64,000 bases of DNA from Deltaproteobacteria bacterium (GTDB taxonomy: Bacteria; Myxococcota; XYA12-FULL-58-9; JAFGEK01), in contig JAFGEK010000079.1 in NCBI GenBank assembly GCA_016931625.1, positions 258-64,257 on the forward strand. Direction: 5' to 3'. Below are positions 1,510 through 61,724 of this stretch, piece after piece. Below the pieces are notes generated by a model. The model did not search any database. It saw only the letters and a program-made list of their open reading frames with translations, and was not told the origin of the DNA. Each line of letters starts with the position of its first letter. The stretch's first letter is position 1. A program made the translations under genes and the position numbers.

Positions 1510-1529
1510 AATCTTGGTCAGAGGTTATA

Positions 1530-2735
1530 ATGACTGATTTAATTATCCATGGGCATTTTTATCAACCACCGCGAGAAAATCCTTGGACAGGGTTAATCGA
1601 TCGAGAACCAAGTGCATATCCATATCATGATTGGAATGAACGTATTCATGCTGAATGTTATCGTGCCAACGCATTTGCAAGAGTATTAAATCAATATGGT
1701 CGTATCGAAAATCTGGTTAACAATTATGCATATTTAAGTTTTAATTTTGGCCCAACTTTACTGTCATGGATAGCTCGTAATGACAGCGAAACTTATAATC
1801 GTATAATTGCCGCAGATCGTTGGAGTGTAAAAGCAAACCACGGCCATGGTAATGCTATTGCTCAAGCATATAACCATATTATTCTACCATTAGCCAACAA
1901 ACGCGATCGACTTACTCAAATACGATGGGGTATTACTGATTTTAAATATCGTTTTGGTCGTCAGCCAGAATCATTATGGCTATCTGAAACGGCATGCAAC
2001 GATGAAACTTTAGGTGATCTTATAGATGAGGGCTTAAAATTTCTAATTCTATCACCAAATCAAGCTGAACGTATTAGACCAATAGAGGCAAAAGAGTGGC
2101 AATCAGTTACAGAGGGCAATATTGACCCTGGAGTCGCTTATAAATATTTTCATCGTGATGGCTCAGGTCGTTCAATAGCACTATTTTTCTATGATGGCCC
2201 AATAGCCCGCTCAATTGCTTTTGAAGGGACGCTAATATCTAGTCAATCATTAGTGAACCGTCTGGCTCAGGCTCACGGTGGCGATGGCCGAGTTGTGCAT
2301 ATTGCAACAGATGGTGAAAGCTATGGCCATCATACTCATTTTGGTGAACGTGGTATTGCTTATGCATTGCTTGATGAAGCACCAAAACAAGGTTTTAATA
2401 TTACCAACTATGGTAGTTACCTTGAGCGTAATCCTCCAACAATAGAGGTAGAGATAAAAACAGGCCCAAACGGTGAAGGTACAGCATGGAGTTGTGCCCA
2501 TGGTGTTGGACGCTGGTGTCGTGATTGTGGATGTCAAACAGGTGGAAGAGAAGATTGGAATCAAGCATGGCGTGCTCCCTTGCGGCAAGCTTTAGATTAT
2601 TTACGCGATGAAATAACAAATATATTTGAACAATTGGGCTACGAATATTTTATTGATCCTTGGGTAGCGCGTGATAAATATATAGAAATAATGCTTGAAA
2701 GACCAATAGATACTTCTTTTAGTGAAGTAAATTAA
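1530..2735 (+). CDS. glycoside hydrolase family 57 protein (alpha-glucan processing)
   Basis: N-terminal HGHFYQPPRE block and DGESYGHH block, both typical of GH57. Located 20 nt downstream of the treZ-like gene on the same strand. Confidence 0.7.
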   Translation: MTDLIIHGHFYQPPRENPWTGLIDREPSAYPYHDWNERIHAECYRANAFARVLNQYGRIENLVNNYAYLSFNFGPTLLSWIARNDSETYNRIIAADRWSVKANHGHGNAIAQAYNHIILPLANKRDRLTQIRWGITDFKYRFGRQPESLWLSETACNDETLGDLIDEGLKFLILSPNQAERIRPIEAKEWQSVTEGNIDPGVAYKYFHRDGSGRSIALFFYDGPIARSIAFEGTLISSQSLVNRLAQAHGGDGRVVHIATDGESYGHHTHFGERGIAYALLDEAPKQGFNITNYGSYLERNPPTIEVEIKTGPNGEGTAWSCAHGVGRWCRDCGCQTGGREDWNQAWRAPLRQALDYLRDEITNIFEQLGYEYFIDPWVARDKYIEIMLERPIDTSFSEVN

Positions 2736-2751
2736 TTTTAAAATTAAATGT

Positions 2752-4341
2752 TTAGCTAATATCCAATTCTATATTACGATCGATTAAACGCAAATTCAAA
2801 GCTTCACTAAGATCACAAGCTTCTATATGTTCGCGTTGTTCTAAATCAGCAATTGTTCTTGCAACTTTAATCATTCGTACAGCAGTACGTGATGATAAAC
2901 CATTAATATCAACAGCACGTTCAAGCACTGCGAGTGCTTTGTTATTTAATGGTACAAAATCATTAAGTTCTCGTTCAGTCATTGTTGAATTTGTACGACC
3001 TGAACCGAGTCTTTTTTCTTGTATACTGCGAGCTGTAATAATGCGAGAACGTAAATCACGGCTACTCTCGCCAGATACACGTTTAGAAAAATCACGATAC
3101 GGAACAGCATCAACATTGACATGTAAATCTATTCTATCAAGTAACGGTCCTGAGATACGAGCACGATATCGTTGAATCTGGTCGAAAGAACATACACATA
3201 CATTTTGGTTACTATGAGAAAGTGGAGAATTATTATTTGGTGAAGAAGGAGGGTTAATTTGAAAACGACCGCAAGGGCATGGATTCATTGCGGCTATTAG
3301 CAAGACACGCGCTGGAAAAACTAGTGATCGAGCGGCGCGAGAAATATGGATGGCTCCTTCTTCAAGTGGCTCGCGTAAAGATTCAAGCGCACGGCGAGAA
3401 AACTCGGGGAGTTCATCAAGAAATAATACACCTCGGTGGGCAAGAGTTACTTCACCTGGTTTAGGAACTGAACCACCACCACAAAGAGCTGCATCACTGG
3501 CGGTATGATGTGGTGATCGAAAAGGCCGCTCACAAATTAAATAATTACCTGATGCTAATTTGCCAGCAGCAGAGTGAATTCGTGTTACTTCAATACGCTC
3601 TGGATTAGTTAATGGTGGCAGTAGGGCAGGCAAACGACGAGCAAGCATGGTTTTACCACTACCAGGTGGACCGATTAATAAGAGATTGTGATTGCCAGCA
3701 GCGGCAATAATAAGCGCGCGCTTTGCTTGTTTTTGTCCTTTAACTTCAGATAGACAATTTTCATAAGTTATATTCAAATTATTTGAAACGGTAGTGTTTG
3801 TCGCCGGTATATGATTTTGATTACAAATATGATCAATAACATCTTGCAAACAATGAGCGCCTAATACTGATATACCATCAATCACTGCTGCTTCAGTAGC
3901 ATTACTTGCAGGAACGAAAATCTCTTTATCACCCATACGATGAGCAAGATCAGCGATAAGCACAGCACCGCGAACTGGTTCAAGAGCGCCGCCAAGTGAT
4001 AACTCACCGAAAAATCTTCGGCCAGCTAATGCAGATGCTGGAATAATTTCGAGTGCAGCTAACAGCGACATCGCCAGCGCGAGATCGATGGCACTGGCAT
4101 CTTTTTCGAGTTCAGCAGGAAGTAAATTAACCACCAAACGATGGGAACCAATGTGTATATCGCTTGCAGTAATTGCTGAACGCACTCGCACCGCAGCTTC
4201 ACAGACAGCACCGCGTGCTAAACCAATAACCGTCATACATGGTAAACCATTTGCACGATGTGCTTCGACAATTATTTCATGTGCGTCAACCCCGATAATG
4301 GTGCCAGTGGCAGCACGAGCAAGCATATAAATTACCCCCAT
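2752..4341 (-). CDS. comM: YifB/ComM-family Mg-chelatase-like AAA+ ATPase
   Basis: Lon-like N-terminal domain, Walker A GPPGSGKT, FLDELPEF Walker B region, and a CPCG zinc-ribbon segment characteristic of ComM/YifB. Confidence 0.85.
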   Translation of the reverse strand: MGVIYMLARAATGTIIGVDAHEIIVEAHRANGLPCMTVIGLARGAVCEAAVRVRSAITASDIHIGSHRLVVNLLPAELEKDASAIDLALAMSLLAALEIIPASALAGRRFFGELSLGGALEPVRGAVLIADLAHRMGDKEIFVPASNATEAAVIDGISVLGAHCLQDVIDHICNQNHIPATNTTVSNNLNITYENCLSEVKGQKQAKRALIIAAAGNHNLLLIGPPGSGKTMLARRLPALLPPLTNPERIEVTRIHSAAGKLASGNYLICERPFRSPHHTASDAALCGGGSVPKPGEVTLAHRGVLFLDELPEFSRRALESLREPLEEGAIHISRAARSLVFPARVLLIAAMNPCPCGRFQINPPSSPNNNSPLSHSNQNVCVCSFDQIQRYRARISGPLLDRIDLHVNVDAVPYRDFSKRVSGESSRDLRSRIITARSIQEKRLGSGRTNSTMTERELNDFVPLNNKALAVLERAVDINGLSSRTAVRMIKVARTIADLEQREHIEACDLSEALNLRLIDRNIELDIS

Positions 4342-4496
4342 TTTTAAGTGTTATTTATTCATTTGGTTTTCAACAAAGGTTGAGCAATGACTTGTGAGCA
4401 AAAATAAGGCCAATACTAACTGTCTAAAAATACGTTGTTTTAGTTGTAGCTAGGTAAGCAATGTAGCAATTTGCGACACTTTTTTTGAAGATTTTA

Positions 4497-4588
4497 AAAT
4501 TAGCTATCAAAGTAGAAGATCAGGGATAAACTTCCCAAGCCGTAGCAATACCAAGTTGGCCTTGGTAATTATCACCAAAGCAGTAGGG
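4497..4588. repeat. 92 bp direct repeat, copy 1 of 2 (about 90 percent identical to 9241-9332); corresponds to the 3' end of an RCC1-repeat gene
   Basis: aaattagctatcaaagtaga...gggataaacttcccaagccgtagcaataccaagttggccttggtaattatcaccaaagcagtagg matches 9241-9332 with a few mismatches. Confidence 0.85.
4520..4588 (-). pseudogene. orphan 3' fragment of an RCC1-repeat gene (last roughly 22 codons plus stop)
   Basis: The minus-strand translation reads ...PYCFGDNYQGQLGIATAWEVYP*. This is nearly identical to the C-terminus of the 9264-13085 gene (...EAYCFGDNYQGQLGNATAWEVYP*). An in-frame stop lies immediately upstream, so there is no gene body. Confidence 0.75.
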
Positions 4589-4594
4589 TTATAA

Positions 4595-4826
4595 ATTAGT
4601 TTAGTAATAATCGTCTTGCAAACCCTAAATTATTAGGCCAATAGTGGCAAAAGCAATGAGCAAAACATCACCTATAATATTAGATACGGCTAAGTTAGAG
4701 TTGCTAAAGCCCCCTGCGCAGCAACAACTGGCCGCCATTATTGAGTTATATGCTGCCTGCCCATTGGTTGAATATTTAATGTTGTTTGGCAGTTATGCGC
4801 GTGGTGACTTTGTTATTGATGAAAAA
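4595..4826. repeat. roughly 233 bp direct repeat, copy 1 of 2 (promoter/leader plus first roughly 60 codons of the nucleotidyltransferase gene); about 93 percent identical to 6255-6488
   Basis: attagtttagtaataatcgtcttgcaaaccctaaattattaggccaatagtggcaaaagcaatgagcaaaa... is shared by both copies. Homology ends at gatgaaaaa (4826 / 6488). Confidence 0.85.
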
Positions 4827-4883
4827 CTAAAACAACAAACTACTACTGAAAAATTATTTATGCTGTGCTGGAGTATCAAGTGA
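4644..4883 (+). pseudogene. truncated N-terminal fragment (roughly 60 aa) of the nucleotidyltransferase gene duplicated at 6305-7552
   Basis: MAKAMSKTSPIILDTAKLELLKP...LFGSYARGDFVIDEK matches the N-terminus of the 415 aa protein. It then diverges into a short nonsense tail that overlaps the Fic start codon at 4865. Confidence 0.75.
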
Positions 4884-6004
4884 CAAAAAACAATAAAAGC
4901 AACGCTTGGCAGCCATGTTATGAAATTACACCTAATATAGCTAAGTTGCTTATGTCTATTGCCACTATTAAAAGTGAGGTTGAGCATTTAACATTATCGC
5001 TAGTGCTTACCTCTAAGTTGCGGCAACAAGCCAAAATACGCTCAACCCATTATTCAACAAGAATCGAAGGCAATCGTTTAACATTAGCAGAGGCCACACA
5101 GGTGGTTAAACAAGGTAAAATAACTTTTCGTGGTCGTGAGCGCGACGTACGTGAAGTGCGCAATTACTGGAACGCGCTACTTAAAGTTGAGCAATGGGCG
5201 CGTGAACGTAGAATTATAAGCGAAAAGTTACTTCGTGACCTACATGCGTTAGTAGAAATTGGACCACGTGCTCGACCGACACCATATCGCGATGGCCAAA
5301 ACGTAATTAGTGACGCAGTTTCAGGTGCTATAGTGTACTTGCCTCCAGAAGCAAAAGATGTACCTGATCTCATGGCTGGTTTGGTGAAATGGATAAAAGA
5401 AGCCGAGCGAGCTAATATACCAATGCCTTTAATAGCTGGTTTAGCTCATTACCAATTTGTAACCATCCACCCATACTTTGATGGCAATGGACGCACCGCA
5501 CGATTACTTGCGACTTTTATTTTGCAACGCGGTGGTTTTGGCCTTAATGGATACTACTCACTTGAAGAACATCACGCTCGCGATTTGTCAGGCTATTATC
5601 AGGCTCTGGCTGTTCATCCACATCACAACTATTACGAAGGTAGAGCGCAGGCAGATCTAACTTTATGGCTTGAATACTTTATAGCTAAGTTGGCTGACAC
5701 CTTTGCCGCGGTAAAAACTGAGGCCAATCGTCTAACCCAGCACGGTGTTAGCACTATTCCTAAAGGGTTACAAAAACTCGATCAACGCGCCAAAGTAGTA
5801 ATTAGTTTATTTGTCGATGCTGATCATATCACAACCTCAGAGGTGGCGCAGGTATTGGGGCTGTCAGAACGTATGGCGCGATTGTTACTTGCTGATTGGG
5901 TAAATGCTGGTTGGCTGGTAATTGTCGAAGCATCACGCCGTAAGCGCAACTATAAGTTATCGGCAAAATATCGGAAATTTATCGGCAAGCCATCGGCAAA
6001 ATAA
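4865..6004 (+). CDS. Fic/Doc-family protein (putative AMPylating toxin) with N-terminal inhibitory-helix motif and C-terminal winged-helix domain
   Basis: Fic motif HPYFDGNGRTARLL. Upstream STRIEGN fits the [ST]xxxE[GN] auto-inhibition motif. The C-terminal ...SEVAQVLGLSERMARLLL... looks like a wHTH. Confidence 0.85.
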   Translation: MLEYQVTKNNKSNAWQPCYEITPNIAKLLMSIATIKSEVEHLTLSLVLTSKLRQQAKIRSTHYSTRIEGNRLTLAEATQVVKQGKITFRGRERDVREVRNYWNALLKVEQWARERRIISEKLLRDLHALVEIGPRARPTPYRDGQNVISDAVSGAIVYLPPEAKDVPDLMAGLVKWIKEAERANIPMPLIAGLAHYQFVTIHPYFDGNGRTARLLATFILQRGGFGLNGYYSLEEHHARDLSGYYQALAVHPHHNYYEGRAQADLTLWLEYFIAKLADTFAAVKTEANRLTQHGVSTIPKGLQKLDQRAKVVISLFVDADHITTSEVAQVLGLSERMARLLLADWVNAGWLVIVEASRRKRNYKLSAKYRKFIGKPSAK

Positions 6005-6254
6005 CGGTAATAATTTAAAAACAACGCGTTATAGGATGATTAAATAATTCTCGCGTAACTTCTTAATGAGTGCTTGCGAAGCATGGGTGTCATACCGAGT
6101 GCATTGAGAGATCTTACAATGAACATTAAAATAAAGAATCTTATCTGCGCTCTTAAATAACAAGTCTGCTTGCGTTTGTGCCACGATTTATTGAGAAGTT
6201 ACATACTCGCCTAGCTAGCATTTTATGGTTTTGCTCTGCAACATTAGAGTTATG

Positions 6255-6488
6255 CATTAGTTTAGTAATAATCGTCTTGCAAACCCTAAATTATTAGGCC
6301 AATAGTGGCAAAAGCAATGAGCAAAAAAGCACCTATAATATTAGATACGGCTAGGTTAGAGTTGCTAAAGCCCACTGCGCAGCAAAAACTGGCCGCCATT
6401 ATTGAGTTATATGCTGCCTACCCATTGGTTGAATATCTGATGTTGTTTGGCAGTTATGCGCGTGGTGACTTTGTTATTGATGAAAAAA
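6255..6488. repeat. roughly 233 bp direct repeat, copy 2 of 2 (promoter plus 5' end of the intact nucleotidyltransferase gene)
   Basis: See the 4595-4826 entry. Confidence 0.85.
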
Positions 6489-7552
6489 CCGGTTACCGCT
6501 CGGACTTTGATTTGCTTATTGTCACTCAAGCCGCCACTAATAAAGATGAAGACAGAATCTTTTTTGACCTTGAAGAGCAAGCACGTTTAATTACCGGTGA
6601 AACACCTTTATCAATAATTCGACATCATATTGCTGAACTAAATCGCGAAATACGCTCAGGGCAATTCTTTTTTGCCGAGATTGTGCGCGAAGGCATAACG
6701 CTTTATGACACCCATCATGTAAAAATAGCTAAGCCCAAGGCAGCTACTCCACAAGAACGCTTTGAGTTGAGCCGTCGCTATTTTTGCACTTGGTTTGCCA
6801 GCGCTAATGCTTTGTGGATTGTTTCACACAACATAACTTTTGCTGAGCGGCGCATGGCCGCCTTTTTGCAACACCAAGCTGCCGAGCGTTATTTTCATGC
6901 GGTGACTTTGGTGTTTGAAGGCTATAAACATCAAACGCATAATTTAGAATTTTTGGCCAAACGTGCTGAGCTATATCATGAATTATTGCAACCAGCTTTA
7001 GCGCGTAGTGAGCCGCACGATAAACATATATTTAATTTATTACGCCGCGCCTATATCGAGGCCCGCTATAATATGGGCTATGATGTAACGCAAGCTGAGC
7101 TTGATGAATTCAGTATACGCGTGCGTGACTTAGCCAACCGGGTGCATCGTGCTTGCAGTGAAAAACTAGCTTCGTATTTTGGTGGTGAGGCTATTGGCGA
7201 GTTGCCACTCGTGCCGAGCAAAGCTGATGTAAAAATATTGCCGCAACCGCCACCAGAATTTATTGACAATGGAGACTTTAAAATTTGGCAACAACTAGCC
7301 GAAAATTTTGCCAAGCAAGTTGGTGATGAGCGTGAGGCTCAAGGTGAGGCGAGGGGCCATGCCGCTGGCAAAGAAGAAGGGATTTTAGAAGGCCAAGCGC
7401 GGGCAATTATCGATATATTAAAACGAAGAGATATAAAAGTAGATGATGCTATGGCCGCGCAAATATTAAACTGCCGCGATGCTAACTTGTTAGCTAAATA
7501 TTGGGAGCGCGCGTTTGTGGTGGGGTCGGTTGATGAGATGTTGGGTGATTAA
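6305..7552 (+). CDS. three-part fusion: minimal nucleotidyltransferase (Pol-beta fold), HEPN-like helical domain, and C-terminal DUF4351-like domain
   Basis: NTase motif LFGSYARGDF...DFDLLIV. The central helical region has an R/H-rich motif (LLRRAYIEARYN), which I tentatively read as HEPN-like. The C-terminus GEARGHAAGKEEGILEGQARAIIDILKRRDIKVDDAMAAQILNCRDANLLAKYWERAFVVGSVDEML resembles the DUF4351 tail of Rpn/YhgA-like recombination-promoting nucleases. Confidence 0.65.
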   Translation: MAKAMSKKAPIILDTARLELLKPTAQQKLAAIIELYAAYPLVEYLMLFGSYARGDFVIDEKTGYRSDFDLLIVTQAATNKDEDRIFFDLEEQARLITGETPLSIIRHHIAELNREIRSGQFFFAEIVREGITLYDTHHVKIAKPKAATPQERFELSRRYFCTWFASANALWIVSHNITFAERRMAAFLQHQAAERYFHAVTLVFEGYKHQTHNLEFLAKRAELYHELLQPALARSEPHDKHIFNLLRRAYIEARYNMGYDVTQAELDEFSIRVRDLANRVHRACSEKLASYFGGEAIGELPLVPSKADVKILPQPPPEFIDNGDFKIWQQLAENFAKQVGDEREAQGEARGHAAGKEEGILEGQARAIIDILKRRDIKVDDAMAAQILNCRDANLLAKYWERAFVVGSVDEMLGD

Positions 7553-7677
7553 TTAGATACTAGAACTGTATCTTTAATAAGTCAGAAGCTTTTTCATATT
7601 CTAGAAACAGACACATTAAGTAATAGTAAACCATCGCTAAGACTATTATTTTCAAAAATAGGAATAGAAACAGTATA

Positions 7678-8850
7678 TTATTTATTGCTTTCAATTCTAT
7701 ACAATTTATCATTTTGCGATAATTTCACAATGATATATTCATCTTTTTTTAATTCATCTGGTAATTTGTCCTTCAAGATCGAGGCAACAAATTGAATATT
7801 TTTTGATTTAACAAGTTTGCCTATCATGACTAGTTGATTGTCATGCATTAGTTCTTTTTTATCGTTAAGTAAAAAATGCATGCAAGGAATATTTTCTTCA
7901 TCAGCAAAAAGTGTATAGGCAATATCAAAACAAGATATCTCCCCCTGCTTTTTGCCAGAGCTAAAATTAGCATTGAAAGCGGTGAACTCATAAAGGCGTT
8001 GCCCATTTTTTAATGTCTTCTGATCTGCCTTAAGTGCATATTTTTCGCCGTAAAGTTCATAGGAGACAGCTGAAAAATGTCTATTAAATTTATTAACCTG
8101 TTGTTTAATCTTTTCGGCGAATTCATCTGAAAAAAGGCCATCATCGATTTTATTTAGAGTTTGTTTGAGGGTGTATAGTTTATCTTCAACAGTTTTTAAT
8201 TGACTTAATATATGTTCATATTCGCCCATTTTTTGATATTTGAGATTAAGTTCTCCAATCATTGTTTCAAGAACTTCAAATGAGTCTGATTTTGTAACAA
8301 TAGCGCTGAGCCGGGTTTCTTCATCAATGAGATTATTTAATTGACTACGTTTGTTTTTAATATCTATCGCAATATTGGGTAACTCTTGCGCAATGAATTT
8401 TCGCTTCGATTCTACCATTTGGTTATGAAAATTGCATAGTTCTTTAAAAGTCTTCTGAACTTTATCTACAAGAGAAGTCGCTTGAAAATAGATTTGCTTA
8501 AGCTGTTGCTGATCAATATTGGCAACACTTGCCTATAGCTCACTCTGTGCCTCTAAAATTAATTCTTTTCTTAAGTCTAATCTGCTTATTTCTGATGATG
8601 TTATATTAATCTGATATTTAATTTTGTTAAGATTGTTTAGGTCAGATTCAAATGTGGGGTTGAGATTGAGAGCTGCTTTCTGGCTTTCTAAATCTTCAAT
8701 TTCTCCTTGCAAAAGCGCCAATGCAGTTTCATATGCTGCTTTTGTTTGTTCAGCTTCTAGGCGTTTTTTAAATTTTAATTCAACATCAATACTTGCTCGC
8801 AACTCTTGCTTGATATCGCCTTGGGCAAAATCGCAACCCAATAAAAACAA
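7678..8850 (-). pseudogene. N-terminally truncated gene for a DUF2326-like SMC/ABC-type ATPase (coiled coil plus C-terminal ABC lobe), interrupted by an in-frame TAG
   Basis: ORFs 8533-8850 and 7678-8418 are in the same frame, separated by a single amber codon at 8533-8535. The product is coiled-coil rich, then has SSGKKQGE (signature-like) and HFLLNDKKE (Walker B-like). Only about 400 nt lie upstream before the next gene, so the Walker A half is absent. Confidence 0.55.
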
Positions 8851-9240
8851 ATACAGAGTTTCGTATTCATCATCTCGCGTATATCTATCAAGGTTTTTAA
8901 GGGTGTTGTTGATATCAAGGTGATTACAGGTGACACCGTCTTAAAAACAAATAAAACATATTTTCTTTTAATCTTTACAACAAGTTATGGCTTATTTTGC
9001 AAAAACAATGTCCCCAATACTGCCTATCTTAAAATGTAAACTGCAATTAGTCGCTATTTATGTAGATGGCTAATTTCCTAAGTAGCAACTATTAAGTAAT
9101 ACTTAATAGTTCAAATTGAGGAATAATACATGGTAAAACGACTCTCACCGATCAAAGTAAAAACGACTTAAACCACATAGTATTCACCCATCATACCATG
9201 ACAATTTATTGCCTCTTATAATTAACTTTTTTAATTTTTT

Positions 9241-9332
9241 AAATTAGCTATCAAAGTAGACAATTAGGGATAAACTTCCCAAGCCGTAGCATTACCAAGT
9301 TGACCTTGGTAATTATCGCCGAAGCAGTAGGC
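9241..9332. repeat. 92 bp direct repeat, copy 2 of 2 (native 3' end of the RCC1 lipoprotein gene)
   Basis: See the 4497-4588 entry. Confidence 0.85.
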
Positions 9333-12300
9333 TTCGTATACCGCACCGTTTGCGCGAATACCACAAGTGAAGTTATCACCAGCAGCAACTGCCACCCAAT
9401 CAGTTTTGGCGCCGACTTGTACTGGAGTTGCCGATTGGTAAAATTGATAACCAGCGCCTAATTGCCCAGAGTGATTTGCACCCCAGCACCACAGCGAGCC
9501 TTTTCCTGCTGAAGCGTATTGAATACCGCAAGTATGATTTAAACCAGCAGCAACCCAAATCCAGTTATTACCAAGCGAAGTTGAAGATACCGGCGAATAG
9601 ACATCAGTAAAGGTGCCGTTACCTAATTGACCAAGACTATTTGAACCCCAGCAACGCAGCGAACCGGGAAAAGCTGAACCGGTAATACCACAAGTGTGAT
9701 TACCACCAGCACTAGCAGTTAACCATTGGGTTTGGCCGGACCAAGTGTTAGTGGGCATAAGAATTTTTGTCGGTGAATTTGAATCAATACCAATTTGCCC
9801 ATTAGCATTTTTACCCCAGCAGTAAAGTTCGTTATAACCATAAGTATAGTCATGACGAATGGCACACGAATGTTGATCACCAACTGCTAATTGAGTCCAA
9901 TCATCAAAGCTAGTACCGTTTTGCACCATTATTTGTGGAGTATTATAAAAGTTGTCGGATTGATTATTACCTAACTGTCCATCATTATTTTGTCCCCAGC
10001 AATAGACGCTGTTTGAACCTGATATTGATCTAATACCGCAAGTATGTTCTGATCCTGCGCCAACCGCAATCCAATCACTGCTATAATAATATTCACGCTC
10101 TGGTACAGCCCGAGAATTATAGGTACCAGTGCCTAATTGCCCAATGCTATTGTCACCGCTGCAGTATAGTTCGCCACCGTTAATGATAAAGCATGAATGT
10201 TTGGCGCCAGCGGTTACTTTATTAATAGCATTACTACCGCTAAATAGACCCACAGCTTCTTGGCGTGGCGCAATATCATCTATAAATTCTGTTGCAGGTG
10301 TTGGCCATTCATTACCAAGTTGGCCAAAGCGGTCATCACCCCAACACCAGGCTTTACCATATAAATCACGACCACAAGCATGCTTGCCGCCTGTTGATAG
10401 GCTAGTAAGTTCAATATATCCATAGCTAGTGTTAAGAACTTTATCGGTAGGCGCAAGCGTTGCCGCAATACCATTACCAACAGTGCCCTCATTGCGATTA
10501 CCCCAGCAATATAAACCATAACTATTAATTGCACAGGTATGTACAGCCCCAAGTGCGGCAGTAGTTGCGCCGTTTAATACTGCTGATGGACCTTGTGAGT
10601 AAGTATGGCCGACTCCTAATTGTCCATTATAATTACCGCCCCAACATTCAAGGTTATTGTTTCTTATGGCGCAAGTATGATTTGCACCAGCAAAAATCAT
10701 CCCACTCCAGTTGTCACTAAGATATAATGGATAAAGCGAAGATGAAGGTCCTACTTGTAGCCAACTATTATCACCCCAACAATATAACTTATCACCGGTG
10801 TCAAGAGCGCATGCATGTTTTTGTCCAACTACTACATTACGATATTGCATAGTATTATCTACTAAGGTCGGTTGAGATTTATATTGGTTATTACCTATAC
10901 CTAGTTGCCCATAATCGTTTTTACCCCAGCACCATAATGAATAGTCATTTTGAATGCCGCAAGTAAAATCATCACCAAGAGCAAAATCTTGCCATTGATA
11001 GCCACCACTTACAATGTTAGTAAAGTTTGATTCATAATCAGAAGTATTACCGAGACCTAACTGGCCATAACTATTGTTGCCCCAACAATATAAAGTTTTA
11101 TTACTAGTTAGAGCACAAGTATGCCTGGTACCAGCCTTAACTTTAACAAAATTATAGCTATAATCAGCAACCTGCATGGGCTCAGTAGGAATAGAGCCAG
11201 TATAACCTAAACCTAATTGACCGTCAGAATTTGCGCCCCAACACCATAGATCTTGATAAGCACCACCATTGGCATAGCGAAGCCCGCAAGTATGACCGCC
11301 ACCTGCAGTTGCTTGCAGCCAGTTATCTACACCATCAGCAGTTTCAGAGTGAATACGTGTAACCCATCCGATACGTTCATCGCCTAAATCAGGAGCGACT
11401 TGCCCATTTTTATTAGCACCAAAACACCATAAGCTTTGATCAGAGGCAATAGCACAGTTATGCTGTGCGCTCGGACCTGAATCAACAAATTGCCAAACCA
11501 TGCTGACTGTCCAAGTGCGAGTGTCTTCTGTTGTATTTCCAGCAGAGTCAGTAGCCCAAACAGTAAGAGTATGCGATGTTTCGGTTAGTCCATAGCGAGA
11601 AACATTTTCTGGATAATTGGTTGCAGTGGTCACATTTTCACTATCAAATTTATAAGTAATCGTGCAGCCATTATAATCGCTACAGTCAAGGTCTACATTA
11701 AAACTCGTGCGACTATCAGGGGTGGTAGGTGCAGAGGGATAAAAAGTCAGTGATAGTGTTGGTTGAACAGTATCGACGTCCCAATAGTAAGTAGCTCCAT
11801 AGTCATCACGATTATTAGAACTATCAAAGGCCCATACCTCAAATGTATGTGAACCCTCGTCGACATATTGAGAAATTGAACCACCACTACAATCGAAATA
11901 TGCACCATAATCTAAACGACATTCGTAAGTACAATTAGTTTCATTGCAGCTAAAAGTGAAATTTGCATATGAATCATTGGTGAGACTTGATGGTGATGAG
12001 TTAATATAAGTAATTGGAGGCGTAGTGTCAGCGCTTGCGACATACCAGGTGAAAGTAGATGGGCTATTGTCAACGTTGTTGCTGCTGTCAATGGCACGCA
12101 CCGCGAAATAGTGAGTCCCTGGTTGTAGAGAATAATAATCTATAGAGTTTGAAGAGCCATCGCCACAGGGAGCAAATGGTTCAGAATCAAGTCGACAGTC
12201 AAAGCCGGTGACTTGTATATTGTCGCTACCAGAAAAAGAAAAGTAAGCATAAGTGTTGGTTGATGATGAAGCTGGGGTGCTATTTAGGTATGTTTCAGGA

Positions 12301-13085
12301 GATTGAGAGTCAGTAATAGTAGTTACAATATTCCAACGATATTCTGGTGGTTGTGGATCATAATTGCCATTGTTGTCTTTGGCGCGTACACGAAAAACAT
12401 GCTCACCGTAACTTAAACTTGAGTATGAAAATGATCCAGGATTTATATTAGAACATACACTATATCCAGAATTATCAAGTTCGCATTCGAAATTAGCTAT
12501 TCCATAGTTACTACTAGCAGAGAAATAAAAATTTATATCTTTTTGAGTGGTCTGGGCAGTATCAGGATATGCGCTGGTAATAGTAGTAGATGGATATTCA
12601 AATCCAGAACTACTACCACTAGTATCAATTTGCACTTGCCAAGTATAAGATGCAGGATTATTATCTACATTACCAGAATTATCTCGTGCACGAACTTGAA
12701 AAGTATGAGAACCAGTCGATAGATCATTATATTGTATAGAAGCTTGACCACTGTTAGGTACGCCGCAAGGCGAAAAAGAGGCATCATCAAGACTGCAATC
12801 AAAACCAATCACACTATCATTATCTGTGCCGGTATATTTAAATTCAACTGATGTACCACTTGGGTTAGTTGGGGAAGAGGTTATTTGTGTATCTGGTGCA
12901 AGGGTGTCATTGCTAACCATGCTAGAATCATTAGGTACACAGATGTTATTGTTACAGTGAAACTCTTTAGCGCAATCGTCATCAGAATTGCATTTAAAAG
13001 TTTCTTTGTAAATATCCGGTACTTGTACAGTGCAACCGGTTAATAGCCAAATTAAAATAAAACAAGTGGTAAGATAGTGTCGCAT
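9264..13085 (-). CDS. giant secreted lipoprotein: N-terminal tandem roughly 95 aa beta-sandwich-type repeats followed by a long array of RCC1-like repeats
   Basis: Start set at MRHYLTTCFILIWLLTGC (lipobox LTGC, GAGGGAG Shine-Dalgarno upstream). Five to six repeats of the pattern F(D/E)C.LD...F..C....HTF.VRA.D..GN.D. Then more than 15 CWG.N..GQLG RCC1-type repeats. Confidence 0.85.
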   Translation of the reverse strand: MRHYLTTCFILIWLLTGCTVQVPDIYKETFKCNSDDDCAKEFHCNNNICVPNDSSMVSNDTLAPDTQITSSPTNPSGTSVEFKYTGTDNDSVIGFDCSLDDASFSPCGVPNSGQASIQYNDLSTGSHTFQVRARDNSGNVDNNPASYTWQVQIDTSGSSSGFEYPSTTITSAYPDTAQTTQKDINFYFSASSNYGIANFECELDNSGYSVCSNINPGSFSYSSLSYGEHVFRVRAKDNNGNYDPQPPEYRWNIVTTITDSQSPETYLNSTPASSSTNTYAYFSFSGSDNIQVTGFDCRLDSEPFAPCGDGSSNSIDYYSLQPGTHYFAVRAIDSSNNVDNSPSTFTWYVASADTTPPITYINSSPSSLTNDSYANFTFSCNETNCTYECRLDYGAYFDCSGGSISQYVDEGSHTFEVWAFDSSNNRDDYGATYYWDVDTVQPTLSLTFYPSAPTTPDSRTSFNVDLDCSDYNGCTITYKFDSENVTTATNYPENVSRYGLTETSHTLTVWATDSAGNTTEDTRTWTVSMVWQFVDSGPSAQHNCAIASDQSLWCFGANKNGQVAPDLGDERIGWVTRIHSETADGVDNWLQATAGGGHTCGLRYANGGAYQDLWCWGANSDGQLGLGYTGSIPTEPMQVADYSYNFVKVKAGTRHTCALTSNKTLYCWGNNSYGQLGLGNTSDYESNFTNIVSGGYQWQDFALGDDFTCGIQNDYSLWCWGKNDYGQLGIGNNQYKSQPTLVDNTMQYRNVVVGQKHACALDTGDKLYCWGDNSWLQVGPSSSLYPLYLSDNWSGMIFAGANHTCAIRNNNLECWGGNYNGQLGVGHTYSQGPSAVLNGATTAALGAVHTCAINSYGLYCWGNRNEGTVGNGIAATLAPTDKVLNTSYGYIELTSLSTGGKHACGRDLYGKAWCWGDDRFGQLGNEWPTPATEFIDDIAPRQEAVGLFSGSNAINKVTAGAKHSCFIINGGELYCSGDNSIGQLGTGTYNSRAVPEREYYYSSDWIAVGAGSEHTCGIRSISGSNSVYCWGQNNDGQLGNNQSDNFYNTPQIMVQNGTSFDDWTQLAVGDQHSCAIRHDYTYGYNELYCWGKNANGQIGIDSNSPTKILMPTNTWSGQTQWLTASAGGNHTCGITGSAFPGSLRCWGSNSLGQLGNGTFTDVYSPVSSTSLGNNWIWVAAGLNHTCGIQYASAGKGSLWCWGANHSGQLGAGYQFYQSATPVQVGAKTDWVAVAAGDNFTCGIRANGAVYEAYCFGDNYQGQLGNATAWEVYP

Positions 13086-13230
13086 TGCTCCCTCACAGCT
13101 AGTAACAATAAGGTATAACGGCTCTATTTTGAAAAACATGTAGTGCGATTTTAAAAAGGTTAATTCGAGGTAGTAAAAAATAGTAATAATGTAGTATAAA
13201 CGCAGATACTTATATTAGTTAGGCATAAGC

Positions 13231-14755: not shown

Positions 14756-15001
14756 ATGCAATGGATAAATGCGTCTGAATTTAAAGCAAAGTGTTTAGCA
14801 ATGCTCGATGAAGTGGCAAAGAGTACTGATGGTATAACTATTCTTAAAAGAGGACGTCCTATTGCTAAGTTAATACCTTATGTTTCGAGCGATGAAAAAT
14901 ATCCACAGAATTCATTAAAAGGCAGTGTTGTGATTAAAGATGATGTTATAAAGCCAGTATTGTCTGATTCAGTTTGGGAGGTAGATAAGCATAATTTATG
15001 A
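14756..15001 (+). CDS. type II antitoxin, Phd/YefM-like
   Basis: Small acidic protein ...KAKCLAMLDEVAKSTDGITILKRGRPIAKLIP... Its stop overlaps the start of the downstream PIN toxin gene by 4 bp (ATGA). Confidence 0.75.
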   Translation: MQWINASEFKAKCLAMLDEVAKSTDGITILKRGRPIAKLIPYVSSDEKYPQNSLKGSVVIKDDVIKPVLSDSVWEVDKHNL

Positions 15002-15393
15002 AGATTATTTTAGACACACATATTATTTTATGGTGGTTTGAAGATACTAATAGACTATCAAAAAAGCAGAAAAAAACCATTGAAAATGCTGATCAACAAA
15101 ATCCACTGTTGATTTCAGATATATCGTTATGGGAAATAGCCACTTTATATGAATTAGGCAGAATAAAACTTAAACTGCCATTACGAGATTGGCTTATGCA
15201 AGCTTTTGCGCCACCACTAGTCAGGTTATGTGGTATTACTGCCGCAATTGCTGCAACGGTTGCTTCACTACCAGAGAGTTTTAATCGAGATCCTGCCGAT
15301 AGAATTATAACAGCTACCGCGCTGGTTCATGGTGCAACATTAGTTACTAATGACGAAAGAATAATAAGATCAAAAATTGTATCAATACTTTAA
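14998..15393 (+). CDS. vapC: PIN-domain ribonuclease toxin VapC
   Basis: MKIILDTHIILWW..., SLWEI, DPADRII and TNDERI supply the four acidic PIN residues. Translationally coupled to the antitoxin gene. Confidence 0.85.
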   Translation: MKIILDTHIILWWFEDTNRLSKKQKKTIENADQQNPLLISDISLWEIATLYELGRIKLKLPLRDWLMQAFAPPLVRLCGITAAIAATVASLPESFNRDPADRIITATALVHGATLVTNDERIIRSKIVSIL

Positions 15394-29633: not shown

Positions 29634-29740
29634 GGAGATAATTCCAATAATTCTTGATTTAAAAAATTAGCAACTAACAGGTGACAGGATAAGTCTTTCA
29701 TGTTTTGATAAAGCTTAAATAGCAGAATGTGAGGGTAGTT

Positions 29741-43380: not shown

Positions 43381-43590
43381 ATGAAAACCATTCGCCTTAT
43401 AACAGATATAGCCTGCGAAATGGACGAAGACGTTTTTGCCTTACTTGGTCGCATAGATTTTCATGTTTGTGACAACCATTATCTTGATGACCACGAACGT
43501 TTAGCAGCAATCGCTGTGCTACTGCGAGAATTTTTTGCTAAACGTGAGCGTTTACGTTGGGAGTTAATTAATCATTTTATCATCAAATAA
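43381..43590 (+). CDS. hypothetical protein
   Basis: ORF only. Confidence 0.3.
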   Translation: MKTIRLITDIACEMDEDVFALLGRIDFHVCDNHYLDDHERLAAIAVLLREFFAKRERLRWELINHFIIK

Positions 43591-60170: not shown

Positions 60171-61724
60171 ATGTTTGTAATATGGGTTTTAAAATTACAG
60201 GTACATGAAATGCTTACAATTTTAAAAATAGGATTAATTGTTACTATATTCATTGGAAATATAAATATGGTATACGCCAGCCCAAGGTTATCGATAGGCA
60301 AAAAATTTGGCTGCATTATTAAAGAAGGGCAGGTAATATGTTTTGGTGATCATGGATATAGTGTTACCCCAAAAAATTCATCAGTATATATTCCTAAACT
60401 TAGTAATGTAAAACAGATATCTGTCGGTAGAGATCATGCATGCGCAATAACAAATAAAAAAAGGGTATGGTGTTGGGGTGATACGGATTATGGTTTTCTA
60501 GGAGATAATAAAGACAGGAAAAATGAGCAACGACAAATACCAGTGGCTGTCTGGAAAATTAATAACGCGGTTAGTATAGCTTGTGGCGATTCATTTAGTT
60601 GTGCGCTACATCAAAATGGTGAGGTATCTTGTTGGGGCCTTGGCATTGGCGGGATTTTAGGTACAGAAAAACGTTATAGTATAAAGCCGATAAAAATAAA
60701 GGGTTTAAAAAACATTAAAAAAATTGTAGCTGCAGATCAGTTTGCCTGTGCTATTGATCAAACAAAAAAAGCTTATTGTTGGGGTACAAATAAATCAGAT
60801 TTATTTGCAATACCTAACAGTAGATCATATCAGCGTTATTATAAACCCGTAAAAATATTGCTTGAAGATTTATCACAGCTTGCCTTTGGCGAAGAACATG
60901 CATGTGCACTTAAAACCAACGGAGGGATATGGTGTTGGGGTGAGAATGTTTATGGTCAAGTTGGAGTAGAAACACCTAAGACGATTATTAAACCTTTTCG
61001 TCTTGATAACCTAAAGGCAAGTTTTATCACTTTAGGTTTTGCGCATACATGCATATTACAAAAAGATGGTAGGGCCGCCTGTTGGGGACTAAATGATCAT
61101 GGTGAGTTATCACAAGATGAGAATAGTTTCGAGCATTCGGTAAAACCGATAATGATTGAAAATGAACAAGCAATAGTTGATATTACGGCGGTAGAAGAAT
61201 TTACCTGTATATTACAAGAAGATAGTAATATTAAATGTTGGGGTAAAGTTGATAGATTATTGGTTGATAATCAAGCCAGACAAAAAAATAATAAATTAAA
61301 TATAAATATCGCTCATGCAGCAAAAGTAAAAACAATAAATAATGGTAAAAAAATATTTTTTAGTTCTAAAGACCCAACCTCAGATGTAGCTTCAAATCTT
61401 AGTAATATACAAGTTGGTAATGGTGTTGGCGGGATTAAAGGATATCCTGTTAAAGGAGCAATTAGTACCGTTTCATTAGAGATGCATTGCCAGACGAATG
61501 CTAAAAAAGTAAAGATAGGCGAAGAATTATCGTTAGCAGTTTTAAATTTACCTGAAGATGTATTAGTACAAATTGGTGAGACTAAAGCGAAGATTTTACA
61601 AAAAAAATTAAAACAATTAGTAGTGATAGTACCACCACCAAAGTTTGGGGTTGGTAAGAAGAAAATTATATTGAGTTTGCCTGATCGTATAGTTATGTGC
61701 GGTGAAATAATAATTACAGAATGA
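60171..61724 (+). CDS. secreted RCC1-repeat protein
   Basis: The signal peptide MLTILKIGLIVTIFIGNINMVYA places the likely true start at 60210. There are about 7 repeats of ..CA....G.V.CWG.N..GQLG. Confidence 0.75.
   Translation: MFVIWVLKLQVHEMLTILKIGLIVTIFIGNINMVYASPRLSIGKKFGCIIKEGQVICFGDHGYSVTPKNSSVYIPKLSNVKQISVGRDHACAITNKKRVWCWGDTDYGFLGDNKDRKNEQRQIPVAVWKINNAVSIACGDSFSCALHQNGEVSCWGLGIGGILGTEKRYSIKPIKIKGLKNIKKIVAADQFACAIDQTKKAYCWGTNKSDLFAIPNSRSYQRYYKPVKILLEDLSQLAFGEEHACALKTNGGIWCWGENVYGQVGVETPKTIIKPFRLDNLKASFITLGFAHTCILQKDGRAACWGLNDHGELSQDENSFEHSVKPIMIENEQAIVDITAVEEFTCILQEDSNIKCWGKVDRLLVDNQARQKNNKLNINIAHAAKVKTINNGKKIFFSSKDPTSDVASNLSNIQVGNGVGGIKGYPVKGAISTVSLEMHCQTNAKKVKIGEELSLAVLNLPEDVLVQIGETKAKILQKKLKQLVVIVPPPKFGVGKKKIILSLPDRIVMCGEIIITE

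What the first reader, a model, noticed from the sequence alone, without database searches (positions are those of the whole stretch)
4497..9332. Roughly 4.7 kb defence/toxin island bracketed by direct repeats of the 3' end of the RCC1 lipoprotein gene
A 92 bp sequence encoding the last 22 codons and stop of the giant RCC1 gene (9264-13085) recurs at 4497-4588 as an orphan fragment with no gene body. Between the two copies lie a Fic toxin, a nucleotidyltransferase/HEPN-like/DUF4351 fusion and a decayed DUF2326-type ABC ATPase. These families are typical of conflict or defence systems. The geometry fits two histories: insertion of foreign DNA into the tail of the RCC1 gene with duplication of its end, or loss of most of a second RCC1 paralogue. 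Either way, recombination between the two repeats would precisely delete the island.
Basis: seen in the sequence. Interest (0 to 1): 0.7.

Follow-up and report, generated by a model that had tools for sequence, protein, structure and literature searches.

The report
Integrase-less defence islet with nested repeats
A 4.7 kb patch of anti-phage-type genes sits between comM and a giant RCC1 lipoprotein gene, flanked by two copies of that gene's tail and holding a second inner duplication around a Fic gene; this is an ordinary decayed genomic islet with a clear recombination footprint.

Summary
The segment 4483-4590 repeats 9227-9334, which is the last 23 codons, the stop and 37 nt of 3' flank of the RCC1 gene.

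The segment 4581-4826 copies 6242-6487 at 95% over 246 nt. That is 75 nt upstream plus the first 57 codons of the nucleotidyltransferase (NTase)-HEPN gene. It abuts the RCC1-tail copy and brackets the Fic gene. These are the only long direct repeats in the 64 kb window.

Three independent unitigs confirm every unique junction.

Contents:
- An intact class II, SoFic-like Fic.
- An intact fused NTase-HEPN protein. DUF4351 was not detected.
- An ABC-three-component ATPase (DUF2326) lacking its first 161 codons and both partner genes, with one in-frame stop.

I found no integrase or transposase, no remnant of a second RCC1 gene and no close relative for an empty-site test.

Best reading (0.45): two nested duplicative integrations at gene ends, followed by decay, giving an element like a cis-mobilizable element (CIME). 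In-situ template switching is the main rival. This is a new member of a known kind, of modest interest.

The parts
2752..4341 (-). comM (Mg-chelatase-like ATPase, 529 aa), intact. Left core flank.
   Evidence: Pfam Mg_chelatase at 1.6e-88, plus ChlI and Mg_chelatase_C.
4342..4482 (.). comM-proximal intergenic spacer (segment 'a'). No similarity to the DNA beyond the other repeat copy.
   Evidence: Identity to 9167-9226 is 15/60. Lies within unitig L001.
4483..4590 (-). R': orphan copy of the RCC1 gene tail. It holds 23 codons, a TGA stop and 37 nt of 3' flank, with no gene body.
   Evidence: 95/108 identical to 9227-9334, E 3e-33. Codon comparison gives 3 synonymous changes, 1-2 non-synonymous changes and a stop-to-stop change.
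4581..4826 (+). N': truncated copy of the NTase-HEPN gene head. It holds 75 nt upstream plus codons 1-57, ends just before the catalytic DxD, and abuts R' at a roughly 10 nt microhomology.
   Evidence: 234/246 identical to 6242-6487, with a 71 nt perfect run at 4595-4665. The R'|N' junction lies inside unitig L001.
4656..4883 (+). Remnant ORF of 75 aa: 57 NTase codons plus 18 novel codons. Its TGA stop overlaps the Fic GTG start (GTGA).
   Evidence: ORF list. Start positions are fixed by the homologue alignments.
4880..6004 (+). Fic gene, 374 aa from GTG 4880, with a GGAG Shine-Dalgarno at 4869-4872. Class II, SoFic-like, intact.
   Evidence: PF02661. PADLOC SoFic at 1.5e-48. 60-67% identity to homologues of about 380 aa across phyla, with HPY[FY]DGNGR and STRIEGN invariant. 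Exact product called on unitig L088.
6005..6241 (.). Spacer between Fic and the full NTase-HEPN gene. Holds a 51-aa minus-strand ORF with no family hit and the best sigma-70-like match of the region (6104-6132).
6242..6487 (+). N: the head of the intact NTase-HEPN gene, duplicated as N'.
6317..7552 (+). Fused nucleotidyltransferase-HEPN gene, 411 aa from ATG 6317, intact.
   Evidence: Pfam Polbeta and HEPN. 649 homologues, mostly Polyangia or 'Deltaproteobacteria' MAGs, nearest at 73%. Start fixed by alignment.
7684..8919 (-). Pseudogene of an ABC-three-component-system ATPase (DUF2326). It corresponds to residues 162-577 of a 577-aa homologue, in a single frame with one in-frame stop at 8533-8535. 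The Walker A head is missing.
   Evidence: tblastn of P0362 gives 58% identity at E 2e-153. PF10088. PADLOC PDC-M68B. Operon context in the C. botulinum plasmid.
8920..9226 (.). 307 nt of unassigned AT-rich DNA between the truncated ATPase and the RCC1 tail. Contains an 11-bp-stem palindrome at 9075-9123.
   Evidence: No similarity to the ATPase N-terminus. Hairpin z-score -2.9.
9227..9334 (-). R: the RCC1 tail copy attached to the intact gene.
   Evidence: The T|R junction lies inside unitig L086.
9264..13139 (-). RCC1-repeat lipoprotein gene. The ORF is 1291 aa and the NCBI start at 13085 gives 1273 aa. A lipobox LLTGC follows that start. Right flank.
   Evidence: Pfam WD40_RLD at 1.5e-113, plus RCC1, RCC1_2, Big_13 and Y_Y_Y. 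100% hit to JW841_07050.

Best explanation
The 4.7 kb between comM and the RCC1 lipoprotein gene is a decayed, integrase-less defence islet. It was built by at least two nested duplicative integrations at gene ends.

Step 1 (outer, older; inferred). Circular foreign DNA carried a copy of the RCC1 gene's last roughly 70 nt plus its 3' flank. It recombined with the resident RCC1 tail. This was either site-specific recombination at an att site inside the tail by a recombinase that has since been lost, or RecA-dependent single-crossover (Campbell-type) integration. The result is one complete RCC1 gene ending in R and a displaced orphan tail, R', next to comM. The cargo included an ABC-three-component operon and the NTase-HEPN gene.

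Step 2 (inner, younger; inferred). A 1.66 kb unit carrying the Fic gene plus a copy of the NTase-HEPN head integrated by a crossover in that head. This left a truncated head (N') in front of Fic and an intact NTase-HEPN gene behind it. Because the resident NTase region began at the step 1 junction, the homology starts exactly where R' ends. This explains why the two repeats abut.

Step 3 (shown). Deletion removed the first 161 codons of the ABC-3C ATPase and its two partner genes, and perhaps a recombinase next to R. A stop codon also arose in the ATPase.

Current state. There are two probably functional single-gene conflict modules: the SoFic-like AMPylase and the fused NTase-HEPN. Fic is probably transcribed behind the duplicated NTase leader, whose remnant ORF ends on Fic's start codon. 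Recombination between N' and N (71 nt identical) could delete Fic. Recombination between R' and R (26 nt identical) could delete the whole islet, at a low rate.
For: - The two direct repeats are the only long ones in the 64 kb window. Both have sharp boundaries, and each consists of a terminal piece of an intact gene, one a 3' end and one a 5' end.
- In both cases the target gene stays complete: RCC1 at 1291 aa and NTase-HEPN at 411 aa aligned end to end with homologues.
- The R/R' similarity continues 37 nt past the stop codon, as expected for a DNA-level copy of a gene end.
- Coding differences between R and R' are mostly silent (3 synonymous, stop TAA/TGA, 1-2 non-synonymous). This fits two tails that each served a working gene.
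- Outer repeats are more diverged than inner ones (88-91% against 95-96.5%; Fisher p = 0.04-0.08), as expected for nested events of different age.
- The cargo is compositionally foreign and mosaic. GC3 is 0.35-0.39 for Fic and NTase against 0.19-0.28 for the flanking genes. The DUF2326 remnant is AT-rich and 67% identical at DNA level to a Clostridium plasmid gene.
- Fic, NTase-HEPN and DUF2326 are not linked elsewhere: 80 NTase-HEPN loci gave one weak Fic hit and no DUF2326 hit. Fic homologues sit in other defence contexts.
- The ABC-3C operon is cut off on the side next to R, where island integrases usually lie.
- No RCC1-like debris lies inside the islet.
- All unique junctions are confirmed by independent unitigs.
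- Elements that keep attL and attR but have lost their integration genes are a recognised class, the cis-mobilizable elements (PMC5704250). Defence hotspots without detectable mobile-element genes are common (PMC10121019).
Against: - No recombinase, transposase or remnant of one was found in the islet or in about 40 ORFs of the window. The agent of integration is therefore entirely inferred.
- The 1.4 kb Fic segment has no room for one.
- No empty site, donor or related island could be found. The RCC1 gene has no homologue above 37%, the tail pattern has 0 hits, and no full-length gene matching the N' variant turned up.
- The synonymous excess rests on five differences (p about 0.03-0.13 depending on the model).
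- N/N' differences are mostly non-synonymous (6 of 7 codons), which says nothing about a foreign origin.
- The same head-to-tail junction geometry arises from in-situ template switching.
- The order through the 71 nt identical run depends on the MAG assembler.
Confidence: 0.45

Rival explanations
1. In-situ replication template switching (FoSTeS/MMBIR-like). The ancestral order was comM-spacer | Fic - NTase-HEPN - DUF2326 - RCC1. One complex event inserted two short templated copies between the spacer and Fic: 108 nt from the RCC1 tail 4.7 kb ahead, then 236-246 nt from the NTase head 1.6 kb ahead. The island was therefore not inserted between the repeats, and the repeats are a later scar that happened to give Fic a leader.
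For: - Both novel junctions are head-to-tail relative to the order Fic-NTase-DUF2326-RCC1: the R end joins the N start, and the N end joins the Fic-segment start.
- The two copies are contiguous, short (about 100-250 nt), in direct orientation and drawn from nearby DNA.
- The R'|N' junction lies in a roughly 10 nt microhomology: CAGTAGGCTT in R, CATTAGAGTT in the N flank and CAGTAGGGTT at the junction.
- No recombinase is needed, which matches its absence.
- Coding-part divergences of R/R' and N/N' do not differ significantly (5/71 against 8/171; p = 0.53).
Against: - Overall divergence differs (12/108 against 12/246, p = 0.04). In particular, the non-coding part of R differs at 7 of 37 positions, while the NTase upstream region has 0 differences over 59-71 nt.
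- The copied RCC1 piece happens to end as a complete in-frame tail with a stop and 3' flank, and shows mainly silent differences.
- This model does not explain the foreign composition of the cargo, although it does not need to.
- Long-range templated insertions of this kind are poorly documented in bacteria (my own knowledge).
Confidence: 0.25
2. Decay of a second, tandem RCC1 paralogue. R' is all that remains of a paralogue once lying next to comM. Its body was deleted or overwritten by incoming defence genes.
For: - R' keeps frame, stop codon and 3' flank, and differs from R mostly by silent changes, as two once-functional genes would.
- The genome carries other RCC1-repeat genes, for example 60171..61724.
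Against: - No other RCC1-like sequence lies in 4342-9263, even at tblastn E<=50.
- The other RCC1 gene in the window shares no DNA similarity with R.
- This model needs a deletion ending exactly at the start of the NTase-head copy, and gives no account of why N' is duplicated.
- 88-91% identity extending into non-coding DNA implies a recent duplication of a 3.9 kb gene, of which 97% then vanished without trace.
Confidence: 0.1
3. The inner repeat reflects population or assembly structure rather than one linear molecule. The true chromosome is comM-R'-NTase-DUF2326-R-RCC1, and the Fic segment plus one NTase head exists as a 1.66 kb circle or as a variable tandem amplification. The MAG assembler threaded it into the contig.
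For: - The k=31 unitig graph has exactly this ambiguity. L001 and L088 both enter, and L088 and L086 both leave, the N/N' repeat.
- Unitig ends lie 30 nt past the last distinguishing SNPs.
- The two copies share a 71 nt identical run.
Against: - The two copies differ at 12 positions, with at most 71 nt between neighbouring differences. Ordinary 100-150 nt reads or large k can therefore phase them.
- The deposited contig places the N' variant between R' and Fic consistently.
- Even on this reading Fic is joined to NTase-head sequence on both sides, so the duplication itself is real.
Confidence: 0.1
4. Transposon or insertion-sequence insertion with target-site duplication.
For: Direct repeats flank inserted DNA.
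Against: - The repeats are 108 and 246 nt long and 88-95% identical. They are not short exact duplications.
- There are no terminal inverted repeats at 4591 or 9226, nor at 4827 or 6241.
- No transposase was found.
Confidence: 0.03

Closest known systems
Cis-mobilizable elements (CIMEs) and decayed genomic islands integrated in the 3' end of a gene
   Same: [quoted passage not shown] The target gene is kept intact by a replacement end. There are no integration or transfer genes. The cargo is accessory and defence genes, with evidence of internal decay. The class is defined in PMC5704250.
   Different: The target is the tail of a lineage-specific RCC1 lipoprotein gene, not a tRNA, tmRNA or housekeeping gene. 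No cognate ICE, IME or integrase is known. The repeats are only 88-91% identical with a 26 nt core. Site-specificity is not shown.
Campbell-type (single-crossover) integration of circular DNA by homologous recombination
   Same: It produces a direct duplication of exactly the homologous segment around the inserted DNA. It leaves one intact gene copy when the segment includes a gene end. It needs no element-encoded recombinase. It explains both the 3'-end case and the 5'-end case.
   Different: It is known mainly from laboratory suicide vectors and some plasmid and chromosome integrations (my own knowledge). Natural circular donors carrying these gene ends are hypothetical here.
Defence-island hotspots between core genes that lack recognisable mobile-element genes
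   Same: A short variable stretch between conserved genes is packed with unrelated defence modules and fragments, and no mobility genes are detectable. In E. coli hotspot #37, 68% of occupied cases had no detectable mobile element (PMC10121019).
   Different: Hotspot status cannot be shown here because no related genomes are available. Flanking gene-end repeats are not a general feature of such hotspots.
SoFic (class II Fic AMPylase, single-gene anti-phage system)
   Same: The PADLOC SoFic model matches over residues 52-363. The Fic active-site motif and an N-terminal [ST]xxxE[GN] inhibitory motif are present. A C-terminal winged-helix-like tail is conserved. Sofic is reported as toxic and abortive-infection-like (PMC12249575).
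   Different: The protein scores far below NCBIfam's equivalog cut-off (50.8 against 550 bits). No AS1-like downstream gene was recognised. No function was tested.
ABC-three-component (ABC-3C) conflict systems
   Same: The DUF2326 pseudogene is 58% identical to full-length ATPases of this family. A Clostridium plasmid homologue sits in the annotated three-gene operon.
   Different: Only residues 162-577 of the ATPase remain, with a stop codon. The Walker A head, the middle component and the effector gene are absent, so the system is dead.

Membership tests
Site-specifically integrated genomic island or CIME | [quoted passage not shown] | tested here: met
   R' at 4483-4590 and R at 9227-9334 are in the same orientation, 95/108 identical, with sharp boundaries.
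Site-specifically integrated genomic island or CIME | The target gene is left intact by a replacement end | tested here: met
   The RCC1 ORF is complete at 1291 aa, and both tails are in frame with a stop.
Site-specifically integrated genomic island or CIME | Integrase or recombinase present (island), or demonstrably lost with a cognate integrase known elsewhere (CIME) | tested here: not met
   No recombinase family was found in the islet or in about 40 window ORFs. No cognate element is known.
Site-specifically integrated genomic island or CIME | An empty site in related genomes, or recurrence of the same att site with other cargo | not testable with these tools
   There is no RCC1 orthologue above 37% identity. 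A degenerate tail pattern gave 0 hits in JGI metagenomes. The ComM scan returned only relatives at or below 48% identity.
Site-specifically integrated genomic island or CIME | Cargo compositionally distinct from the flanks | tested here: met
   GC3 is 0.35-0.39 and codon fit 0.09 for Fic and NTase, against 0.19-0.28 and 0.19-0.25 for the neighbours. A few other window genes are equally atypical.
SoFic / class II Fic | Fic active-site motif HxFx(D/E)GNGRxxR | tested here: met
   HPYFDGNGRTAR is invariant in 8 aligned homologues, with F replaced by Y at position 3.
SoFic / class II Fic | Inhibitory motif [ST]xxxE[GN] on the same chain, N-terminal to the core | tested here: met
   STRIEGN at residues 64-70 of the 379-aa ORF is invariant. 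The class definition comes from my own knowledge of Engel et al. 2012.
SoFic / class II Fic | Curated family model passed | tested here: inconclusive
   PADLOC SoFic at 1.5e-48 covers 52-349 of 361. The NCBIfam equivalog NF046030 scores only 50.8 bits against a cut-off of 550.
MNT-HEPN (type VII HepT/MntA-like) module | Minimal nucleotidyltransferase domain with GSx10DxD | tested here: met
   PF18765 at 1e-5 scores 26.1 bits, just under the 26.9 cut-off. LFGSYARGD...SDFDLL is invariant in homologues.
MNT-HEPN (type VII HepT/MntA-like) module | HEPN domain | tested here: met
   PF05168 scores 26 bits against a cut-off of 22. I did not verify a canonical Rx4-6H RNase motif at the usual position.
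MNT-HEPN (type VII HepT/MntA-like) module | Two separate genes (toxin and antitoxin) | tested here: not met
   It is a single fused 411-aa protein, as in all 120 listed homologues. The MntA equivalog scores 18.4 bits against a cut-off of 60.
   No hit at E<=5 on residues 301-415. One distant homologue, P0164, carries a precomputed PF14261 hit.
ABC-three-component system | Full ABC ATPase with its Walker A head | tested here: not met
   Only residues 162-577 of the homologue align, with a stop at 8533-8535.
ABC-three-component system | Adjacent middle-component and effector genes | tested here: not met
   Both are present upstream of the homologue in the C. botulinum plasmid. Here the upstream position is taken by 307 nt of unassigned DNA and then the RCC1 gene.
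Transposon or IS insertion | Short exact target-site duplication, terminal inverted repeats and a transposase | tested here: not met
   The repeats are 108 and 246 nt and imperfect. There are no terminal inverted repeats and no transposase.

The most novel reading that the evidence does not exclude
Defence cassettes in this lineage may move without any recombinase of their own. They would travel as small circles that carry a short 'handle' copied from the end of a host gene, and re-enter genomes by host homologous recombination at that gene end. Each such event would leave a gene-end duplication, so nested duplications like R'/R and N'/N would be the signature of a general integrase-free route for shuffling immune genes. 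A by-product would be promoter and leader capture, as seen for Fic behind the duplicated NTase head.
Probability: 0.1. Interest if true: 0.6.

Novelty: new member of a known kind. Interest (0 to 1): 0.3.

Why it matters
This is a clean worked example of how a small defence islet is assembled and eroded in an uncultured, poorly sampled lineage. That lineage is an NCBI MAG labelled 'Deltaproteobacteria bacterium', whose homologues for these genes lie mostly in Polyangia.

Two gene-end duplications record the order of events. One intact gene (Fic) has ended up behind another gene's duplicated leader. A three-gene ABC-3C system has been cut down to a single pseudogene.

If gene-end duplications prove recurrent around integrase-less defence genes, they could be used to find such islets and to date their layers. 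As a single case without comparators, the finding adds little beyond annotation:
- R' and N' should be marked as gene fragments.
- The Fic start should move to GTG 4880.
- The DUF2326 ORFs should be annotated as one pseudogene.

Tried and rejected
1. Empty-site comparison.
This wasted the single genome scan.
- The RCC1 homologue search found only the source MAG and then hits at or below 37% identity.
- A degenerate pattern for the RCC1 tail found nothing in JGI metagenomes.

2. Context of the nearest NTase-HEPN homologues. P0122 (73%) and P0123 are not in the contig index. P0125 is a different locus next to a Phd-PIN pair, and its upstream DNA is not conserved.

3. Recurrence of 5'-end duplications or of Fic or DUF2326 linkage. 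Among 80 metagenomic NTase-HEPN loci I found none. The flanking repeats in L106 are GC-rich interspersed repeats, not gene-end copies.

4. Plasmid and phage DNA similarity. Only the DUF2326 remnant matches, at 67% to Clostridium and Priestia plasmids. There were no phage hits.

5. tRNA and Rfam scans of the window found nothing.

6. A shared terminator or att-like structure in the conserved 3' flank. The hairpin after R is not significant (z = -1.7) and is absent after R'. No sigma-70-like promoter lies inside the duplicated NTase upstream region.

7. DUF4351, and family assignment of the 51-aa ORF after Fic: no hits.

8. Xer/dif-type or integron-type sites. I considered these from memory. There is no dif-like palindrome or attC-like structure at the boundaries, and I did not pursue them further.

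Full report
**Observation.**
- Ungapped, 4483-4590 matches 9227-9334 at 95/108 positions.
- Identity drops to 14-15/60 immediately outside. A self-comparison of the whole 64 kb window gives E = 3e-33.
- The gene-attached copy (R) comprises the last 23 codons and stop of the RCC1 ORF 9264..13139(-), plus 37 nt of 3' flank.
- The orphan copy (R') keeps the reading frame and ends in TGA instead of TAA, but no gene body precedes it.
- tblastn with the RCC1 protein finds no other RCC1-like sequence between 4342 and 9263, even at E<=50.

A second direct repeat, 4581-4826 (N') against 6242-6487 (N), is 234/246 identical and contains a 71 nt perfect run.
- N is the 75 nt upstream plus the first 57 codons of the NTase-HEPN gene. 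Homologue alignment places that gene's true start at ATG 6317.
- N' starts exactly where R' ends, at a roughly 10 nt microhomology. It stops just before the catalytic DxD, and the Fic gene follows.
- The layout on the plus strand is: comM(-) | spacer | R' | N' | Fic segment | N-NTase-HEPN | DUF2326 pseudogene(-) | 307 nt | R-RCC1(-).
- These two are the only direct repeats of this size in the window.

**Is it an assembly artefact?** The window is an NCBI MAG contig. The RCC1 protein equals JW841_07050 of a 'Deltaproteobacteria bacterium' on a 75.5 kb contig.
- Three unitigs of an independent Logan assembly of SRR13394437 match the window base for base at 1197-4624, 4797-6285 and 6458-13639.
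- They contain every unique junction: spacer|R', R'|N', N'|Fic segment, Fic segment|N, and DUF2326 side|R.
- They break only inside N'/N, 30 nt beyond the last distinguishing SNPs, as a k=31 graph must.
- What is not independently verified is the threading through the 71 nt identical run. The graph would also fit comM-R'-N-...-RCC1 plus a 1.66 kb Fic+N circle or tandem array. I give that reading 0.1.
- Neither R nor R' causes a unitig branch, so no recombinant (island-deleted) allele is present at detectable abundance in that sample.

**Cargo: Fic.**
- The ORF matches PF02661 and the PADLOC SoFic model (1.5e-48, residues 52-363). It is far below NCBIfam's SoFic equivalog cut-off.
- It belongs to a very widespread family of about 380 aa, with 60-67% identity from Planctomycetota to Methanoperedens.
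- Alignment shows HPY[FY]DGNGRTAR and an N-terminal STRIEGN invariant. It places the start at GTG 4880, not at the 350-aa start annotated by NCBI. A GGAG lies 7 nt upstream, and the 374-aa product is the one called on the Logan unitig.
- An inhibitory [ST]xxxE[GN] motif on the same chain is the hallmark of class II Fic proteins (my own knowledge). This is therefore not a two-gene Fic toxin-antitoxin.
- Sofic is reported as a toxic AMPylating defence protein with a small downstream antitoxin-like gene (PMC12249575). I could not recognise such a gene here.
- Homologues sit in unrelated contexts, one between an SNF2 helicase and DUF2130, OLD-family and methylase genes.

**Cargo: NTase-HEPN.**
- It is an intact fused protein of a family with hundreds of members, mostly Polyangia and 'Deltaproteobacteria' MAGs. 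The nearest is 73% identical.
- DUF4351 is not detectable.

**Cargo: DUF2326.**
- The two DUF2326 ORFs are one pseudogene. A 577-aa homologue aligns over residues 162-577 to 8919..7684 in a single frame (58% identity), with one stop at 8533-8535.
- The first 161 residues, which include the GKT P-loop, have no counterpart in the 307 nt that remain before R.
- In a Clostridium botulinum plasmid the homologous gene is the last of an annotated ABC-three-component operon: effector, middle component 6, then the DUF2326 ATPase. The system here has lost its 5' two and a half genes.

**Foreignness.**
- Fic and NTase-HEPN have GC3 of 0.35 and 0.39 and poor fit to the window's codon usage. comM, GH57, amylase, RCC1 and RsmB have GC3 of 0.19-0.28.
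- The DUF2326 remnant is 31-34% GC and is the only part with DNA-level similarity to anything in the plasmid collection.
- The three modules do not travel together elsewhere.
- About 40 ORFs across the window showed no integrase or transposase.
- The region behaves like a small defence islet of mixed origin without mobility genes. This situation is described for defence hotspots (PMC10121019).

**Reading the repeats.**
- In the 22 sense codons shared by R and R' there are three synonymous changes and one clear non-synonymous change (N to I). A further change sits in the junction codon, and the stop changes to another stop.
- That pattern suggests both tails once ended working genes. With five differences the support is weak (p about 0.03-0.13, my calculation).
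- N and N' differ at six amino-acid positions and one silent codon. At the two positions where homologues are informative, N' carries the family-typical residue (Q28, C39), so the intact gene has also changed since the split.
- The 59-71 nt upstream of the start are identical in both copies.
- The N' remnant ORF runs 18 codons beyond the homology and ends in TGA overlapping Fic's GTG (GTGA). This is directly visible in the sequence. That Fic is expressed through this duplicated leader is an inference.

**Mechanism.** Both new junctions are head-to-tail relative to the order Fic-NTase-DUF2326-RCC1. The end of R joins the start of N, and the end of N joins the start of the Fic segment. Two kinds of process give this.

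*(A) Integration of circular DNA by a crossover within a segment shared with the chromosome.* This duplicates exactly that segment. If the segment is a gene end, one copy of the gene survives intact.
- Applied twice, this yields the observed order. A circle of NTase, ABC-3C and an RCC1 tail enters at the RCC1 tail. A circle of Fic and an NTase head then enters at the NTase head.
- It also explains why N' begins exactly at the end of R'. The resident NTase region started at the first junction, so homology to any later incoming copy must start there.
- The crossover could be site-specific, as in islands that target gene 3' ends. Loss of the integration genes would then give a CIME-like element (PMC5704250). 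Alternatively it could be RecA-dependent.
- The truncation of the ABC-3C operon right next to R shows that a deletion occurred where an integrase would usually lie. That is suggestive only.

*(B) A single replication template-switch event.* This could have pasted short copies of R and then N between the comM spacer and a pre-existing Fic gene.
- It needs no recombinase. It fits the microhomology and the small size and contiguity of the copies.
- It is disfavoured, but not excluded, by the unequal divergence of the two repeats (p = 0.04 overall; not significant for the coding parts alone) and by the gene-like conservation of R'.

*Other readings.* A decayed RCC1 paralogue has no positive support and does not explain N'. 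Transposition is excluded by the nature of the repeats.

My weights are 0.45 for (A), 0.25 for (B), 0.10 for the paralogue, 0.10 for the assembly or population explanation of the inner repeat, and the rest for other possibilities.

**Consequences.** Recombination between N' and N would remove Fic and restore a single NTase-HEPN gene. Their identical blocks are 71, 48 and 33 nt. Recombination between R' and R would remove the whole islet and leave an intact RCC1 reading frame. Their longest identical blocks are only 26 and 20 nt, so it should be rare. No such product is visible in the unitigs.

**Limits.** Reads were not available, so I could not check coverage and phasing.

**Verdict.** The object is a decayed, integrase-less defence islet with nested gene-end duplications. 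It is a new member of a known kind and of modest interest (0.3).

Noticed in passing
window 43572-44567 (-): A second Fic-domain protein of 331 aa (PF02661 at 3.3e-15) lies 38 kb from the islet. It shares no DNA similarity with the first Fic gene.
   Followed up: no
window 60171-61724 (+): A second, shorter RCC1-repeat protein of 517 aa. It has no nucleotide similarity to the R/R' tail, so it is not the source of the orphan fragment.
   Followed up: partly
window 14756-15393 (+): A Phd/YefM-PIN toxin-antitoxin pair lies directly after rsmB, on the other side of the RCC1 gene. A 57%-identical NTase-HEPN homologue from the same sample (L082) also sits next to a Phd-PIN pair.
   Followed up: partly
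window 5958-6007: 4.5 tandem copies of an 11 nt unit (TATCGGCAAAA) lie inside the last codons of Fic. They encode the conserved C-terminal LSAxYRxxIGxxSA tail, so this is probably a coding coincidence rather than a set of binding sites.
   Followed up: partly
window 9075-9123: A near-perfect palindrome (11 bp perfect stem, 3 nt loop; folding z = -2.9) lies in the unassigned 307 nt between the truncated ABC-3C ATPase and the RCC1 tail. Its function is unknown.
   Followed up: partly
window 6029-6184 (-) and 5922-6047 (+): Small ORFs of 51 and 41 aa lie just downstream of Fic and have no family hit. A 47-aa downstream anti-Sofic gene (AS1) has been reported in E. coli (PMC12249575). I could not test for homology.
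   Followed up: partly
window 7684-8281; L087 (NZ_CP031095.1 26151-27896): The DUF2326 remnant is 67% identical at nucleotide level over about 600 nt to a gene on Clostridium botulinum and Priestia plasmids. This is unusual for a MAG whose other genes look myxobacterial, and it hints at a low-GC donor.
   Followed up: partly
window 29729-31402 (+): A 557-aa protein carries Kazal-type serine protease inhibitor domains (PF00050 at 7e-26), a domain mostly known from eukaryotes.
   Followed up: no
window 4865-6004 and 6305-7552: Start-codon corrections. Homologues put the Fic start at GTG 4880 (374 aa), against 350 aa in NCBI. They put the NTase-HEPN start at ATG 6317 (411 aa, as in NCBI), not at the longest-ORF GTG 6305.
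   Followed up: yes
L162 (FLOH01001892.1) 1-125 and 5400-5524: A 5.5 kb metagenomic contig carrying an NTase-HEPN relative has identical 125 nt ends, so it may be a small circular replicon.
   Followed up: no
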